Assembly: GCA_965644265.1 (NCBI GenBank) | Contig: OZ286476.1 | Span: 8,680,001 to 8,744,000, forward strand | Direction of reading: 5' to 3' | Origin: Glycera tridactyla | Lineage: Eukaryota | DNA: 64,000 bases | Shown here: piece by piece, positions 41,733-50,700 of the stretch | How positions within the stretch are numbered: the stretch's first letter is position 1 | Layout of the letters: every line of letters begins with the position of its first letter | Made by a program: the position numbers

Positions 41733-44700
41733 CAGTAGTAGTATCAATACTCCAGGCAGCTGGTCGAGAAGCACAAGACCGGCCGCTGATGAACATCACA
41801 TTACAAACGCAAGACACTTGACGTGAGGAGTGACGGTGCTGGAACTCGGCAAAGACAAATACGTTAATATTGGTGTGAAAGCATCTCAAGTGTTGTGTTT
41901 ATCTGGGAAAGCATACATCTCTCGTCTCTGAAGTGAGCTGGTAGTAATGCAAAATGAGCATCCTGGACTCCATCAGCTCTGACATCTTGAACAGACGATG
42001 GTACAATAAGCAGCTACAGGGATACAACTTGCTCACAGACCACACTAGAATCACAGACATAACTGAAACATGTAGTGACTATATCAGCACAAATAGGGCA
42101 GACTTATACAAATACCATCAAGTGAGACCACATGGTGCTTCTTGCCATAATATGAAAGTGTAGTTAGACATTAGTTGAAAAGGTTAAAGAGGAGATCTGG
42201 ATAGGCATTTACCGTGGTTTTGGAGCCGCCATTTACCTGGCAGATGGTTAGTGAATTGTCGAATGTATCGATGAACATTTTACGAAAGTTGAATAATATC
42301 TTGGTTGATAATGGAATAGGCTTCAAAATAATGATCATCATGTAAATTCATATATATACTTCATATTGCAAGATGTCAGTGGACGTGAAAAGTTGGAAAG
42401 TCGGTGACAACCAATCTGATACATGAGTAAGACATCAGGGCAGGGAGAAATCAAGGCAAAGAGGCAGAGGAGAGTACAAATGTATGGTCTGCTTATCAGT
42501 GAGGTTCGTTTTCATTCAGCTTCTCAGACAATCACAAGATATCAGAAGTATTCACACACGGCACGTCACGGCATGGAGTAACAGCATTTGAAGAATCGCG
42601 GGAATTTTTCATCAGTATCGCATGAAATCGAGCTGCACGCCATAAGTCAGATGCAAGGCTTTAGACAGTTTATTACGAGGAAGCTGAGCGATGGTGATTC
42701 GTGCCCGAAAACACTGGCAAACGTGAAAGAGAAGGTAATTGTGTCGACGACGGGCGATAAAGCAAGCTTACCGGAGACTTCTTGTAGCGCTTCATGCTCC
42801 ACCATGTCAAACGCTTTGAGGTCACCAACCGAAGCTCCAGAGAAGAAGAAATATCGTCAAGAATGCAATGAAACTGGATTAAGTGATACAATACCTGACG
42901 ATTCGCTTGATTCATTATTAATTGATTCTCGAGATGAAAGTACTGTCACATCACATACATTTGCAAATCAGAAATCTAGTACGCAAGAAAGCATGTTGAG
43001 TCCGCGACTTTCGAGACCGTGTGCTGCTTCGGCCTTCAGCGGGGATGAGTCACCCATTACCGGCGTGGAACGTCAACAAAGCCTAATTTGCGGTCTCGCA
43101 CAGATATATTCTCCCGACGAAAATTCGTGCAGCATTGCTGACAGTAATCGTGAGCATACAACCCAGACAGGTGATCGTGGATATAGTATACACTCAATGG
43201 CAGATGCGAGTACAGAGATTGAAACTGACTTTACCGTATCGTCACAACAACCTTTTGACATGGTATTACTACGTAAATCGATTAGAGAGGATATGTGTGA
43301 ACTTCGAGATGAAATGAAGGCAAATTTCATAAAAGACATTCGGAAAGAATTAATCAACGAACTCAAAGAGGAAATCAAGCAAGTAAGCACGGATGAAACG
43401 GAAAGAATGATTAGTAAAGAAGTAAAAGCGATTACGAAAACCAAGAGATTCCAAACTGAGCTGAAACAAGAAATTCAATCATCATTAAAGAACAAAGAAG
43501 AAATCAAGAAAATCTGTGATGAGCATGTAAAACGAGATACCCTACCTGTATGTAAAACACTCATTCAAGAAACCATGAAAGACACAGTTGTTTCTGAATT
43601 AAGGGAATATAGGAAAGAGTGGAGAAGTGAACTTACGAGTACTATAGAATATTCGTTAACAGTTTCTGATAGTACGGAAAGAAAACTGGAAGAACATGAC
43701 AACAATATTGGAAAGATGTCGGAAATTATAAGCATTCAAGCTAATGAGATTAAAAAACTCAAAGAAGACATGAAGGATCTTAGCTCAAATGCTTGTGCAG
43801 AAATTGAAGAGCTGAAGAAGGAATTGAAACAGCTGAAAGAAGAACTGAAAAGGCACCCAAACACTACACAGAACAATATAGAAATAGCCAGAGTTGAAAA
43901 GCTGGAAAAAGATGTGGAACAAATCAAGAAAAATGATAGATTGGTAGTACTGATATTTGATGGTCTACCATTTCGTGACAATATCTCGCTGCATGAACAG
44001 ATCGTGGGGATCATAAATGAATATACTGATTTAAATGTACACGAAAGACACATCATACAGGCTGTTCGATTTGGTCCCACGAAACCAGGGAAAGTACGTC
44101 CAGTTCGTATACGTTTTGTTGATCCAAACCTAAGGAAAGATCTTCTACAAAGAAAAGCCTTATTTCGTAAGTCTCCCATCTTCATCAGAGAACACTTAAC
44201 AGAAATTGAGAATGGGATTTTTCAGGAAGCGAGAAAAGCCAAGATAGAGAAACTACTTCACAATGTTTGGACCTCTCAGGGCCAAGTATTCATTTCGAGA
44301 AGCCCACAAGAACAGAAAATTGCAATACCAAGTGTAGAAAAGCTAAATGCAGTGCTGAAAAGCAAAAGAAAAGATGTCAGTGATCCTGACTACCAACCAA
44401 GGAGATTTTGGAGCAAAAATCCCAAACCCAATCCCATCGAAAAAGAAAACCCAATACCACCCAAGAAATTTCATGTAGAACAAGAAGAAAAAAGAATGGA
44501 CGTAGATGCACCAATTCAATTAGAATCAAGAAATGAGTCGACCAGTGAACGATTGAATAACTTGATAAATGAAACAAACAAACAACATGATTGGCGTGAA
44601 AGGAAAAAGAACCAACAAGGACCGGTTAGCAAAACCAATTGTGCTTTAGCGGTCGATTCAGGTCGCGAAAACACGCCCAACGCGGTCATGACATCGCGAA

Positions 44701-47700: not shown

Positions 47701-50700
47701 CCCTGATTGATCACGTAATAGTGAGTAATACAGACCTTTATGCAAGAAGTGGTTTAATCGATATTGGAATCTCTGACCACTCTATGGTGTTCACAATTAG
47801 GAAAAAGGTCAAAGTAGCAAGAACAAGTCAATATAAAACTTTCCAGGATTATAGAAATGCTAACTTTGAGATGATAGCAGATGAAATTCAAAAACTTGAT
47901 TGGACTATTTTTTATGCTACTACTGAACTTGATTCCGCAATTGACTACCTATATTCCAGACTACAACCCATTTTTGATAAATTCATCCCAACAAAACGAG
48001 TGAACATCAGAGAGAATTGCCCTGGATGGATGACTGGTGAGTATCATTGTCTTATTGAGGACAGAGAGAAGGCTAGTAAGCTTAAGAGATTATTTCCTAA
48101 TGAAGAAAATTGCAAGAAAAAAGCTGATATTCAAAAGGAAGCAAAAAAGTTGAAAAATAAACTCCAGAGAACTTTTCTACGAAATAAACTTGAAGAAAAT
48201 GAGAATAATCCAAAAGGACTTTGGAAAGTATTGCGTGAATTTTGGCCTTCAAACAAGGATAACTCAGAGATCAGAAATATAAATGGGCACACTAACAATA
48301 ATGATATAGCAAATGAACTAAATTCCTTTTTTAGCACTGTGGGTTCTGAATTATCAAATAGAATAAAGGAAACAAATATTGATCCGGTTTCTTTTGTAGA
48401 TAAAAATGTAGTGAATACCTTCTCTCTGTTCAAAATAGACAATGATGCACTCCAACATATTGTTGATAAAATAAATGTAAAAAAAGCTGGCATGGATGAC
48501 TTACTCACGGCCAAACTTGTAAAGGGGGTTGGAGGAATTTTAATAGAACTTTTGACATTTATAGTTAATTCAAGTATTACTACAGGAAAATTCCCAACAA
48601 ATTGGAAATGTGCAACAATAAATCCTTTATTCAAGGATGGGTCCCGAAATGAGTCAAATAACTATAGACCAATAAGTTTACTTATCCCTGCTAGTAAAAT
48701 TTTAGAAAAGGTTGTCCAATCACAAATCACAGAACATTTTCGGAAATATGATCTACTGTGTGGGGAGCAATCAGGATTCAGGAAGAACCACTCCACTGGG
48801 ACCTGCATGATTGATTTCTTAGATAGAATATATACATCATTGGATAATGGTAAACCCAGTGGGGTGATCTTCTTGGATCTAAAAAAAGCTTTCGACACAG
48901 TGGATCATAAAATTTTGCTTAGAAAACTGGAAAAGTATGGTTTTGATGAAATGTCTAATTCTTGGCTCTACAGTTATTTGTCAGAAAGGTGTTGTTATAC
49001 CAGGGTGAATGGTGTGGTATCTGAAAAAAAGATTGTGAACTGTGGAGTTCCCCAGGGTTCTATCCTGGGGCCTCTCCTTTTCACAATCTATGTGAATGAT
49101 TTACCATCATATTTGAAAAATGCAAAGTGTAATCTTTATGCTGATGATACCGCTATAACTGTATGTAATGCGAATCCTAAGATACTTGAGAGCGCATTAA
49201 GGTCTAACCTACATCTGGTCTCTATTTGGCTAGCATCGAATAAATTATCATTGAATATTAGTAAAACAAAAATCATGATTTTTGGGACCAGATACATGGT
49301 TAAAAAATGTCAGGATATATCAGTAAAATTTGAGAACACGAAAATTGATAATGTTCCGGTTTTCAAGTATCTTGGGATGTATTTAGATAGCCATCTGACT
49401 TTTGATGATCATATCCATTATGTACGCAAGAAAACCATAGGCAAGATTAGGTTTCTAAGTAGATTACGTCCGATCTTGGATAAAAAAACAACCTTGATGC
49501 TCTATAGAAGCCTAATCTTGCCTATACTTGATTATTGCGATATTATTTATGATGGTACGAGTGCAAAAAATCAATTGAGTATTCAGCGAATACAAAATTA
49601 TGCTCTAAAAGTGATTGCAAGGAGACCCAAATTAACAAGTACCTTAGATGTTCATGCAGAATTGAATATTCCATTCCTAGGCCTAAGAAGGGAACATCAT
49701 ATCCTATATCAAACTTGTAAATTTCTGCAAGATGATACTCCAGATCATTTTAGAAGATTTTGTGAAAAAGAAATTCCCATACATGGATATGCCACTAGAC
49801 AAACATACAACAGTAAGACTCGACTGACAAAACCAAAAACAAGATTAAAATTGGCTGATAGGAATTTTACTGTAAGAGCAGCAGATATTTGGAACAAATA
49901 TAGTGAAGATCATGAGGAATTTGACCTAGAACCAATAGATATTTTTAGAAATAAATTGAAATCGTTTATTACAATCTAGAAATGTTATGAGCTATTAATC
50001 TTGATTTTCATTTAATTTTTAAAATTTGTAATATGTTTATAACCATAGACTTGGTATTAGAATTTGCATTTACACATTCACCTATTGTGTCTCTTTCCTT
50101 CATTTTGTTTCAATCTTGATCATGTCATATATAGTTTTTAAAAAAATTTTTTAAGGGAACTCATGAATGTATTGGGTGCATTATGAAATTGGCAATAGAT
50201 GACGTATAGTCTTTGACCTTATATTCAAATTGACAACATTATTCTATAATTATGTGCTGTTACTAACACATTTTATGTTTTTCTACTAACGAAGTACCGG
50301 ATAAGGTTGCATTAATTGCAGCTAATTGTATTTTTCGTTGCAAAATAAAGTTTATTACAATTACAATTACAATTGCGAGCAGCACTTTTGATCTTACATC
50401 GTATGAGCCACGACATCGTAGTCCATACCCTTCCCGCTATATACCACAAAGACAGCTACCAAAATTCGCCCAATTCGCTAGTGGTCATTGTGGTTGTTGG
50501 GTTCAGTTTACGACTGACCTTCGATTGTGGTTGTTTGTTGTGGCTGTGGATTTCTTTCATCAGATGTGGTTGTTCTTCTTGACTTCCTTGTCAATGAAAG
50601 TGGTCAATTGTTTGTTTATATCCAATGTGGCTTTATGTTGCTTATTGAAGCTGTTGCTTTTTCTCGACCTGTGATAGTCCTAATATTGAAGCAAGCGAGG

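What the first reader, a model, noticed from the sequence alone, without database searches (positions are those of the whole stretch)
42651..49979. Three-ORF LINE with all frames intact, potentially active
Seen: ORF1 (737 aa), esterase (293 codons) and ORF2 (964 aa) are co-oriented, stop-free and in the same frame register. The esterase has Ser-Asp-His and oxyanion G/N motifs; EN and RT motifs are complete; the tail is intact. Established: LINEs usually carry one or two ORFs, with any esterase inside ORF1. Inference: a young element carrying both an RRM-type RNA chaperone and a lipid-acting hydrolase as separable modules.
Basis: partly seen in the sequence, partly recalled or inferred. Interest (0 to 1): 0.65.

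Follow-up and report, generated by a model that had tools for sequence, protein, structure and literature searches.

The report
Three-gene LINE-like locus, unity unproven
An intact jumping-gene (LINE) body lies directly behind two more intact genes, an RNA-packaging-type protein and a free-standing esterase, but a sharp change in base composition at the joint leaves open whether the three move as one element.

Summary
The three ORFs exist as described: 737 aa, 293 stop-free codons (270 aa from ATG) and 964 aa, all on the + strand.

- **ORF2** is an intact endonuclease plus reverse transcriptase. It is followed by a 374-nt 3'UTR and an (ATTACA)3.5 tail at 50354-50374.
- **The middle ORF** is a confident SGNH hydrolase with Ser21, Gly53, Asn101, Asp241 and His244.
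- **ORF1** has no Pfam match. It folds, at low confidence, as a long helix followed by an RRM-like domain. Its best structural matches are LINE-1 ORF1p, and it models as a parallel coiled-coil trimer.

The right part alone looks like a complete ORF1-less CR1-group LINE.

No second copy was available, so co-mobility is untested. My odds:

| Reading | Probability |
|---|---|
| Recently assembled three-ORF LINE | about 0.45 |
| Juxtaposition or one-off chimera | about 0.33 |
| Host or domesticated genes beside a LINE | about 0.17 |

If it is one element, it is a new variant. Published esterase ORF1 proteins never carry RRM domains.

The parts
42400..42650 (+). Putative 5' leader of the left module. 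The left edge is only approximate.
   Evidence: CpG observed/expected rises from 0.41-0.45 (41800-42399) to 1.0 or more from about 42400. No TSD or other boundary marker was found.
42651..44864 (+). ORF1, 737 aa. Residues 1-200 and about 570-737 are S/T/P/G/Q/N-rich (17-24 such residues per 50-aa block in most of these blocks, against 8-14 in the middle; I read this as probable disorder). The middle is coiled coil plus an RRM-like domain.
   Evidence: No Pfam family at E <= 0.1 for the whole protein or E <= 10 for four pieces, beyond noise. No PDB relative by sequence.
43674..43943 (+). Coiled-coil segment of ORF1 (residues 342-431).
   Evidence: Long helices with pLDDT 66-87 (10-residue block means). 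A three-copy model gives in-register contacts with heptad spacing. Score 0.75, best of 3 controls 0.00, partner pLDDT at least 78, runs agree in at least 96% of contacts.
43944..44189 (+). RRM-like beta-alpha-beta-beta-alpha-beta domain of ORF1 (residues 432-513).
   Evidence: Secondary-structure order in the model, pLDDT 51-74. Foldseek ranks 1-7 are human LINE-1 ORF1p trimer chains (E 9e-3 to 5e-2). 2w7a, the L1 ORF1p RRM, has target-normalised TM-score 0.52 and rmsd 4.6 A over 103 columns.
44865..45188 (+). Spacer 1, 324 nt, non-coding, CpG observed/expected 1.0. Holds TGACGTCA and CCGGAAGT 12 nt apart at 44957-44984.
   Evidence: The motif pair occurs once in the window and in 0 of 100 shuffles. 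Reading the two motifs as CRE- and ETS-type sites is from recall.
45189..46001 (+). Free-standing SGNH (GDSL) esterase ORF, 270 aa from ATG.
   Evidence: AlphaFold model pLDDT 90, pTM 0.88. 111 PDB chains at Foldseek E <= 1e-3; the best natural matches are sialate O-acetylesterase, PAF acetylhydrolase Ib and GDSL lipase 3p94. Catalytic residues checked. A profile of 19 homologues built without the query scores it 168 bits, with the alignment starting 4 residues after the ATG.
45835..45995 (.). Compositional seam (support interval of the change point; maximum at 45874).
   Evidence: Two first-order Markov models were trained on 42400-45100 and 47100-50374 and applied to the untrained interval. 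CpG counts: left 135 observed against 146.5 expected, right 40 against 115.1.
46002..47084 (+). Spacer 2, 1,083 nt, non-coding, T-rich, GC 0.33, CpG observed/expected 0.24. In composition it belongs with ORF2 and the 3'UTR, so it is a candidate 5'UTR of an ORF1-less LINE.
   Evidence: It has 23 ATGs and 20, 29 and 24 stops in its three frames. No Pfam hit for its 3 longest reading frames. No Rfam match at gathering score.
47085..49979 (+). ORF2, 964 aa. AP-endonuclease domain at residues 25-232 (nt 47157-47780) and reverse transcriptase at residues 523-765 (nt 48651-49379).
   Evidence: By sequence, 11 PDB entries match at E <= 1e-3, best LINE-1 ORF2p at 1.9e-12. Motif strings.
49980..50353 (+). 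3'UTR, GC 0.26.
   Evidence: A small hairpin lies near 50305-50324, but the fold is no better than shuffles (z = 0.44).
50354..50374 (+). Microsatellite tail (ATTACA)3.5. There is no poly(A).
   Evidence: (100% matches).

Best explanation
The locus is a LINE built from two modules.

The right module (about 46.0-50.37 kb) is a complete, intact CR1-group-style element: a long leader, one endonuclease/reverse-transcriptase ORF, a 3'UTR and a hexamer-repeat tail. The left module (about 42.4-46.0 kb) carries two separate cistrons. One is an L1-type ORF1 protein with a disordered N-terminus, a trimer-type coiled coil, an RRM-like domain and a tail. The other is a free-standing, catalytically complete SGNH esterase.

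I think the most likely reading is that the left module was joined to an ORF1-less backbone recently enough that the two halves still differ in composition, and that the whole 8 kb is, or recently was, one transposing unit.

Inferred mechanism (none of it shown):
- ORF1p multimerises and coats the element's RNA.
- The esterase acts on acetyl or lipid esters and may tether the particle to membranes, as proposed for the ZfL2-1 esterase.
- ORF2p nicks the target and reverse-transcribes from the hexamer-repeat 3' end.
- ORF2 would be translated either from a sub-genomic transcript started in the 1.08-kb spacer (the old 5'UTR) or by internal initiation.
- The esterase may be expressed from the CRE/ETS-like site cluster in spacer 1.

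Shown: the ORFs, their folds, their catalytic residues, the tail and the seam.
For: - All three ORFs are intact, co-oriented, contiguous and in the canonical order ORF1, accessory ORF, ORF2, tail.
- ORF1's best structural matches are LINE-1 ORF1p: ranks 1-7 of the PDB search, probability 0.72-0.95. Its helix models as an in-register parallel trimer with score 0.75 against a best control of 0.00. That mark was reached by 21 of 30 solved homomers and 0 of 23 single chains, the calibration used two copies rather than three, and the pass may come from likeness to the solved L1 trimer.
- L1-type (Transposase_22-like) ORF1s are documented in CR1 and L2 lineages (PMC4120745, passages read).
- SGNH esterases are a known LINE accessory function (PMC3905857, passages read).
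- No RT or endonuclease remnant lies downstream of the tail (tblastn; Pfam). The layout is therefore not a LINE nested inside another LINE's inter-ORF region.
- Neither upstream protein has a close relative in the large protein sets: 0 hits, and the best esterase relative is 28% identical. This fits unannotated mobile-element ORFs better than conserved host genes.
- The seam falls within about 130 nt of the esterase stop, so both upstream ORFs are kept whole. That is expected if the join was selected.
Against: - Only one copy was seen and no target-site duplication.
- The 1,083-nt spacer before ORF2 is far longer than the usual LINE inter-ORF spacers (recalled). In composition it matches the right module from its first bases.
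- The left module has CpG observed/expected 0.92 and GC 0.405. That is unlike the right module (0.35, 0.327) and unlike the two other retroelements in the window (0.39 and 0.61). It is above the window mean of 0.59.
- The flank after the tail (0.72, GC 0.399) resembles the left module. That is what a simple insertion of an ORF1-less LINE would give.
- All 51 esterase relatives are stand-alone. The 12 I scanned with Pfam showed no RT, endonuclease or RRM domain.
- A promoter-like motif pair upstream of the esterase suggests its own transcription unit.
- The ORF1 assignment rests on a pLDDT-57 model with no match at E <= 1e-3 and no Pfam hit.
- The RT clade was not determined by phylogeny.
Confidence: 0.45

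Rival explanations
1. This is a juxtaposition or a one-off chimera. A complete ORF1-less CR1-group LINE (46.0-50.37 kb, with spacer 2 as its own 5'UTR) either inserted just downstream of a separate mobile-element-derived two-gene unit, or its reverse transcriptase switched templates onto another element's RNA at the end of cDNA synthesis. Either way a single non-propagating composite was made.
For: - There is a sharp seam at 45835-45995, with CpG 135 observed against 146.5 expected on the left and 40 against 115.1 on the right.
- Spacer 2 and the 3'UTR share the right module's AT-rich, T-rich, CpG-poor make-up.
- The flank beyond the tail returns to GC 0.40 and CpG observed/expected 0.72.
- Single-ORF CR1-group elements are common and mostly lack poly(A) (PMC13343379, passages read).
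- Template-switch chimeras are known for L1 (recalled).
Against: - An unrelated LINE would have to land in the same orientation within about 130 nt after the stop codon of a LINE-type accessory gene, leaving all ORFs intact.
- No TSD flanks 46.0-50.37 kb. The best shared word is an 8-mer lying 10 nt from the tail, and in the local-alignment test 53 of 200 shuffles scored as well as the best spacer-2 alignment.
- The upstream unit then has no ORF2 or tail of its own anywhere downstream.
Confidence: 0.33
2. ORF1 and the esterase are host or domesticated genes in an unmethylated, CpG-rich locus. They are either two intronless genes with separate promoters, or one two-exon gene in which a 279-nt intron (44841-45119) joins ORF1 residue 730 in frame to the esterase reading frame. 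The LINE is an unrelated insertion in or after the 3' end of that locus.
For: - The left module has the highest CpG observed/expected in the window, with two peaks (42400-43400 and 44400-45200, values 1.0-1.3) that look like CpG islands.
- The TGACGTCA...CCGGAAGT pair lies about 200-230 nt upstream of the esterase ATG.
- GGTAAGA, one of only 2 + strand matches in 64 kb, sits at a codon boundary 7 codons before the ORF1 stop. The TAG that opens the esterase's stop-free frame follows a T-rich run. The interval is 279 nt, or 3 x 93.
Against: - No orthologue-grade relative of either protein was found in the large protein sets.
- The 23 codons between the putative acceptor and the ATG show no homology to the family. 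The profile alignment starts 4 residues after the ATG.
- Both proteins are of kinds known as LINE accessory proteins, and a LINE ORF2 follows in the canonical place.
- No transcript data are available.
Confidence: 0.17

Closest known systems
CR1/L2-lineage LINEs with a type II (coiled coil, RRM, CTD; Transposase_22-like) ORF1 (Metcalfe and Casane 2014, PMC4120745)
   Same: An L1-like ORF1 lies upstream of an endonuclease/RT ORF2, and the element ends in a short repeat rather than poly(A). That paper stresses modular ORF1 exchange.
   Different: Here a separate esterase cistron and a 1.08-kb spacer lie between ORF1 and ORF2. ORF1 is 737 aa with long S/T-rich, probably disordered ends. Pfam's Transposase_22 model does not match. 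The RT clade is not established.
ZfL2-1-type (type IV) esterase ORF1 proteins of CR1, L2 and RTEX LINEs (Schneider et al. 2013, PMC3905857)
   Same: Both are SGNH hydrolases with an intact catalytic set, encoded upstream of ORF2. PAF acetylhydrolase is a structural neighbour in both cases (paper passages).
   Different: Those esterases sit in one polypeptide behind a coiled coil. [quoted passage not shown] Here the esterase is free-standing, with 12 residues before the conserved Pro13 and no coiled coil, and an RRM-type protein is encoded beside it. No sequence match to a LINE esterase structure appeared in the PDB searches or among the 39 Foldseek rows shown (ranks up to 49).
ORF1-less CR1-group elements (Rex1, Zenon, L2 clade B and others; PMC13343379)
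   Same: The right module alone (leader, single EN-RT ORF, 3'UTR, non-poly(A) tail) matches this architecture.
   Different: Those elements have nothing LINE-like directly upstream. Here two intact accessory-type ORFs abut the leader.
GDSL esterase as an extra ORF (ORF3) in bdelloid Vesta LTR retrotransposons and Athena Penelope-like elements (Rodriguez et al. 2017, PMC5408684)
   Same: Both are stand-alone esterase cistrons, without a coiled coil, carried as an add-on module by a retroelement. That paper argues for independent captures.
   Different: The retroelement class differs (LTR or Penelope-like, not LINE), and so does the position (downstream of pol).
Human LINE-1 (ORF1p trimer, ORF2p)
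   Same: It gives the best structural matches for ORF1 and the best PDB sequence match for ORF2 (1.9e-12). It also has a CpG-rich 5' region ahead of CpG-poor ORFs (recalled).
   Different: L1 has a poly(A) tail and a 63-nt inter-ORF spacer (both recalled) and no esterase. Identity to ORF1p in the structural alignment is only 16-20%.

Membership tests
APE-type non-LTR retrotransposon (LINE) | Reverse transcriptase domain with the catalytic YADD box | tested here: met
   RVT_1 scores 4.1e-37, 128.3 bits against a cut-off of 29.6, over residues 523-765. YADD is at residue 685.
APE-type non-LTR retrotransposon (LINE) | N-terminal apurinic-type endonuclease domain | tested here: inconclusive
   Exo_endo_phos scores 9.8e-5 and covers profile positions 4-225 of 225, but at 22.6 bits it is below the 24.5 cut-off. 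Exo_endo_phos_2 scores 23.9 against 27.4. The motif strings are present.
APE-type non-LTR retrotransposon (LINE) | Dispersed copies, mostly 5'-truncated, sharing the 3' end; target-site duplications | not testable with these tools
The contig collections relevant to eukaryotes were closed. No significant TSD was found.
CR1 group (CR1/L2/Rex1/Daphne/Crack) | RT groups with the clade in a phylogeny | not tested
   No Repbase or Dfam reference sequences were available. The assignment rests on architecture only.
CR1 group (CR1/L2/Rex1/Daphne/Crack) | 3' end is a short tandem repeat, not poly(A) | tested here: met
   (ATTACA)3.5 at 50354-50374. Within the CR1 group, poly(A) is reported only for Zenon (PMC13343379).
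CR1 group (CR1/L2/Rex1/Daphne/Crack) | Conserved 3'UTR stem-loop next to the tail | tested here: inconclusive
   A small hairpin is present, but the fold energy is no better than shuffles (z = 0.44; 127 of 200 shuffles fold as well).
L1-type (type II) ORF1p / Transposase_22 | Sequence match to the family profile | tested here: not met
   There is no Pfam family at E <= 0.1 for the whole protein, and PF02994 is not among the hits at E <= 10 for the pieces. There is no PDB match by sequence.
L1-type (type II) ORF1p / Transposase_22 | Coiled coil that multimerises, followed by a single RRM and a C-terminal domain | tested here: inconclusive
   The helix and the beta-alpha-beta-beta-alpha-beta order are seen at mean pLDDT 57, and the CTD region is below 50. 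Foldseek ranks 1-7 are L1 ORF1p, but at E 9e-3 to 5e-2. The trimer model scores 0.75 against 0.00 for the controls. The Atlas lead is a cluster with Transposase_22 on 15% of members, score 0.87.
SGNH/GDSL hydrolase superfamily | Four conserved blocks with Ser, Gly, Asn and Asp-x-x-His | tested here: met
   S21, G53, N101, D241 and H244 are present and conserved in the family alignment.
SGNH/GDSL hydrolase superfamily | Flavodoxin-like alpha/beta fold of the superfamily | tested here: met
   The model has pLDDT 90 and pTM 0.88. 111 PDB chains match at E <= 1e-3. The 34 natural rows of the 39 listed are all SGNH-type esterases, lipases or acetyltransferases; the other 5, including ranks 1-4, are designed 'FI6-focused design' scaffolds. 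Pfam sequence scores are below the cut-off (24.6 against 32.9).
LINE esterase ORF1p (type IV, ZfL2-1-like) | Esterase preceded by a coiled coil in the same polypeptide | tested here: not met
   The ORF starts 12 residues before Pro13, which precedes the first strand (E15-19). The upstream stop-free 23 codons show no homology. 49 of 51 relatives are 104-338 aa stand-alone proteins.
LINE esterase ORF1p (type IV, ZfL2-1-like) | Detectable sequence kinship with known LINE esterases, including the transposon-specific His and Ser positions | tested here: inconclusive
   No LINE esterase chain appeared in phmmer or profile searches of the PDB at E <= 10 or among the 39 Foldseek rows printed (ranks up to 49). 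The transposon-specific positions were not examined.

The most novel reading that the evidence does not exclude
This is a propagating LINE family that carries an L1-type RRM ORF1 protein and a free-standing, catalytically complete SGNH esterase as two separate cistrons. It would have been assembled recently by joining a CpG-rich two-gene module to an ORF1-less CR1-group backbone whose old 5'UTR survives as a 1.08-kb internal spacer and promoter. The esterase might be expressed from its own internal promoter. Alternatively, it might be expressed by optional splicing that fuses it in frame to ORF1p, a retrovirus-like strategy not described for LINEs. This would contradict the published inference that RRM and esterase functions are redundant or mutually exclusive in LINEs.
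Probability: 0.4. Interest if true: 0.65.

Novelty: new variant of a known kind. Interest (0 to 1): 0.45.

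Why it matters
Schneider et al. 2013 (PMC3905857, passage read) found no esterase-containing ORF1 protein in Repbase with an RRM or other known RNA-binding domain. They suggested that the combination either never arose or brings no advantage.

An element encoding both, as separable genes, would be a natural test case. It would show whether the esterase supplies something the RNA chaperone does not, such as membrane targeting, and whether LINEs gain accessory genes by bolting whole modules onto ORF1-less backbones. The compositional seam would then be a rare snapshot of such an acquisition.

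If the pieces are merely neighbours, the finding is an ordinary intact ORF1-less LINE next to two unexplained intronless genes.

Tried and rejected
- **Word-indexed protein searches.** The esterase found 0 hits among 289 candidates. The ORF1 core found 0 among 1,907 near-length candidates and 0 among 224 shorter ones.
The organisms and names of the 51 esterase relatives remain unknown.
- **The search for related loci.** The family alignment was too divergent to search with. The single esterase and ORF2 queries against bacterial and archaeal genome contigs found no relative.
- **PDB by sequence.** ORF1 gave only noise. The esterase gave weak generic SGNH hits.
- **Foldseek of the ORF1 model against viral structures** was uninformative. 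There was 1 hit at E <= 1e-3, an uncharacterised protein, and 'few polyhedra protein' came only at rank 22. The Atlas lead to Baculo_FP_2nd clusters (score 0.90) therefore could not be confirmed.
- **The Atlas search for the esterase** gave only generic bacterial GDSL clusters.
- **TSD searches** found no word of 7 nt or more shared with the 5' zone. In three local-alignment tests, 103, 33 and 53 of 200 shuffles scored as well as the best alignment.
- **3'UTR hairpin.** It is not better than shuffles.
- **Rfam.** There were two sub-threshold chance matches.
- **Pfam on small frames** in spacer 2, the 5' zone and the flank found nothing.
- **One broken reading frame.** I rejected the idea that ORF1 and the esterase are one frame broken by a single mutation, because 4 in-frame stops separate them.
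- **Coding upstream extension of the esterase.** This is not supported.
- **2A-like NPGP motif.** It is absent from all three ORFs.
- **Kapitonov and Jurka 2003 (PMC7528939)** is not held.
- **Literature searches** for a LINE with an L1-type ORF1 plus a separate esterase ORF found none. Supplementary tables of the papers were closed and not seen, and they may list such architectures.

Full report
**What is there**

Between 42.6 and 50.4 kb the + strand holds three long open frames.
- ORF1: 42651-44864, 737 aa.
- A middle ORF: stop-free from 45120, first ATG at 45189, stop at 46001. That is 293 codons, or 270 aa from the ATG.
- ORF2: 47085-49979, 964 aa.

With a stop-triplet frequency of 0.061, even the shortest is far beyond chance. 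All start coordinates are 0 mod 3. The intervening stretches in that frame hold 4 and 21 stops, so the shared register (chance 1 in 9) has no read-through meaning.

A perfect (ATTACA)3.5 repeat at 50354-50374 ends a 374-nt AT-rich 3'UTR.

The window has 12 runs of N. None lies inside the feature, and none was filled.

**ORF2**

Pfam gives RVT_1 at 4.1e-37 (residues 523-765). It also gives a full-length but sub-threshold endonuclease match: Exo_endo_phos 9.8e-5, profile positions 4-225 of 225, 22.6 bits against a cut-off of 24.5. YADD and the other strings I know as LINE endonuclease and RT motifs are present (the names are recalled). The best solved relative by sequence is LINE-1 ORF2p at 1.9e-12.

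A single EN-RT ORF of under 1,000 aa with a short-repeat tail instead of poly(A) is the architecture of the CR1 group (PMC13343379, passages read). I could not run an RT phylogeny, so the clade is an architectural guess.

**The esterase**

By sequence it is only a weak GDSL match (Lipase_GDSL_2 4e-5, below cut-off).

An exhaustive HMMER search found 51 relatives at E <= 1e-3, 9 at E <= 1e-10 and none at E <= 1e-30. The best is 28% identical. Of the 51, 49 are proteins of 104-338 aa that consist of little more than the domain. The two longer ones (621 and 784 aa) add only low-complexity tails. None of the 12 I scanned has an RT, endonuclease or RRM domain.

With 21 of these as an alignment, AlphaFold gives pLDDT 90 and pTM 0.88. 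Foldseek finds 111 PDB chains at E <= 1e-3. The top four rows are designed scaffolds; the natural matches are led by sialate O-acetylesterases, PAF acetylhydrolase Ib and GDSL lipase 3p94.

Ser21, Gly53, Asn101, Asp241 and His244 are in place and conserved across the family. A profile built from 19 relatives without the query scores it 168 bits, and the alignment begins 4 residues after the ATG. The ATG-initiated 270-aa protein is therefore the natural unit.

It is a free-standing enzyme. It has no coiled coil and no detectable special kinship to the solved LINE esterase.

**ORF1**

Nothing in Pfam matches, nothing in the PDB matches by sequence, and the word-indexed protein set gives nothing.

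A single-sequence AlphaFold model of residues 340-600 is weak (pLDDT 57). It shows two long helices followed by a beta-alpha-beta-beta-alpha-beta unit.

Foldseek ranks 1-7 are chains of the human LINE-1 ORF1p trimer (E 9e-3 to 5e-2, probability 0.72-0.95). There are no matches at E <= 1e-3. The isolated L1 RRM (2w7a) aligns with target-normalised TM-score 0.52.

Three copies of the fragment model as a parallel, in-register coiled coil with heptad-spaced contacts over ORF1 residues 342-431.
- Score 0.75 against a best of 3 controls of 0.00.
- Partner pLDDT at least 78, and the runs agree in at least 96% of contacts.
- The mark was reached by 21 of 30 solved homomers and 0 of 23 single chains.
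- The calibration used two copies, and the pass may reflect likeness to the solved L1 trimer.

The Atlas leads point to Baculo_FP_2nd clusters (0.90) and to a cluster with Transposase_22 on 15% of members (0.87). The viral fold library did not confirm the former.

I read ORF1 as a probable L1-type (type II) ORF1 protein with long S/T-rich, probably disordered ends. This kind of ORF1 is documented in CR1 and L2 lineages (PMC4120745).

**The seam**

The second has 23 ATGs and 20-29 stops per frame.

| Segment | GC | CpG observed / expected | CpG o/e |
|---|---|---|---|
| 42400-46001 | 0.405 | 135 / 146.5 | 0.92 |
| 46002-50374 | 0.327 | 40 / 115.1 | 0.35 |

Two dinucleotide Markov models were trained on the outer parts and applied to the untrained middle. 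They put the change point at 45874, with a support interval of 45835-45995. That is at the 3' end of the esterase ORF, whose stop codon is at 45999-46001.

Spacer 2 matches ORF2 and the 3'UTR from its first bases. The window average CpG observed/expected is 0.59. The two other retroelements in the window score 0.39 and 0.61. The flank beyond the tail returns to 0.72 with GC 0.40.

The right part therefore looks like a self-contained ORF1-less LINE with a 1.08-kb leader. The left part looks like CpG-undepleted DNA, with two CpG peaks at 42.4-43.4 and 44.4-45.2 kb.

**Unity**

I could not test co-occurrence.
- The window has no second copy.
- The bacterial and archaeal contig scans found nothing.
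- No target-site duplication marks either candidate 5' end.

Against a nested insertion, no RT or endonuclease remnant follows the tail.

For a real connection:
- Two proteins of LINE-accessory kinds stand intact, in the canonical order and orientation, directly before a LINE ORF2.
- The seam spares both.
- Neither protein has orthologue-grade relatives in very large protein sets.

Against a real connection:
- The seam itself.
- The very long spacer.
- The stand-alone nature of all esterase relatives.
- The CpG richness of the left part, which is unlike the other retroelements here.

I put a recently assembled three-ORF LINE at about 0.45, a juxtaposition or one-off template-switch chimera at about 0.33, and host or domesticated genes beside an unrelated LINE at about 0.17.

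**Two details in spacer 1**

First, TGACGTCA and CCGGAAGT lie 12 nt apart at 44957-44984, about 200-230 nt before the esterase ATG. The pair occurs once in the window and in none of 100 shuffles. I recall these as CRE- and ETS-type sites, so the esterase may have its own promoter.

Second, GGTAAGA lies at 44840-44846, one of only 2 + strand matches in 64 kb. This would put a donor exactly after codon 730 of ORF1. The TAG at 45117-45119 that opens the esterase's stop-free frame follows a T-rich run. The interval is 279 nt, or 3 x 93, so splicing would fuse the two proteins in frame.

The 23 codons that this would add show no family homology, so I treat the splice as a speculation. I did not build or search the joined model. 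Each ORF was searched separately.

**Comparison with what is known**

Published LINE esterases are domains of ORF1 proteins behind a coiled coil. Schneider et al. state that none of them in Repbase carries an RRM or other RNA-binding domain (PMC3905857). Metcalfe and Casane found esterase ORF1s only in two vertebrate subgroups (PMC4120745). Stand-alone GDSL esterase cistrons have been described as ORF3 of bdelloid LTR retrotransposons and in Penelope-like elements, not in LINEs (PMC5408684).

My four literature searches found no LINE with an L1-type ORF1 plus a separate esterase ORF. Supplementary tables were closed, and Repbase and Dfam were not available. Such a family may therefore already be catalogued.

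If the three ORFs move together, this is a new variant of a known kind. If not, it is an ordinary intact ORF1-less LINE next to two unexplained genes.

Noticed in passing
window 5437-11786 (+): A second retroelement. It has a 1,123-aa low-complexity ORF, then RVT_1 (3.7e-21, 8750-10105) and a weak tyrosine-recombinase match (Phage_integrase 0.0029, 10155-11786). This suggests a DIRS-like element. GC is 0.47 and CpG observed/expected is 0.39.
   Followed up: partly
window 2005-4203 (-), also 3-284 (-) and 28061-28147 (-): Broken fragments of other LINEs, 24-55% identical to ORF2 at the protein level, with RVT_1 pieces in different frames. No ORF1-like or esterase-like sequence lies next to them.
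   Followed up: partly
window 44957-44984 (+): TGACGTCA and CCGGAAGT lie 12 nt apart in the ORF1-esterase spacer, inside a CpG-rich peak. The pair occurs once in 64 kb and in 0 of 100 shuffles. It may be an internal promoter for the esterase.
   Followed up: partly
window 44840-44846 and 45117-45119 (+): A donor-like GGTAAGA sits at a codon boundary 7 codons before the ORF1 stop, and an acceptor-like T-rich run plus TAG sits at the start of the esterase's stop-free frame. The interval from 44841 to 45119 is 279 nt and in frame. The added 23 codons show no homology. The joined model was not built.
   Followed up: partly
proteins P0001-P0051: The esterase belongs to an unnamed, very divergent family of mostly stand-alone proteins of 104-338 aa with the pattern GxSH ... 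GVGG ... GSND ... PRxWW ... DxxHxN. In P0029 the domain is followed by a long Arg/Ser/Lys-rich tail that looks like a nucleic-acid-binding region. What these proteins belong to is unknown.
   Followed up: partly
window 41585-41743, next to the N run 41383-41578: Compound microsatellites, (TCA/ATT)n then (TAG)n with 16 hexamer units, lie about 650 nt upstream of the CpG-rich left module. The window holds 12 N runs of 138-330 nt, all left untouched.
   Followed up: no
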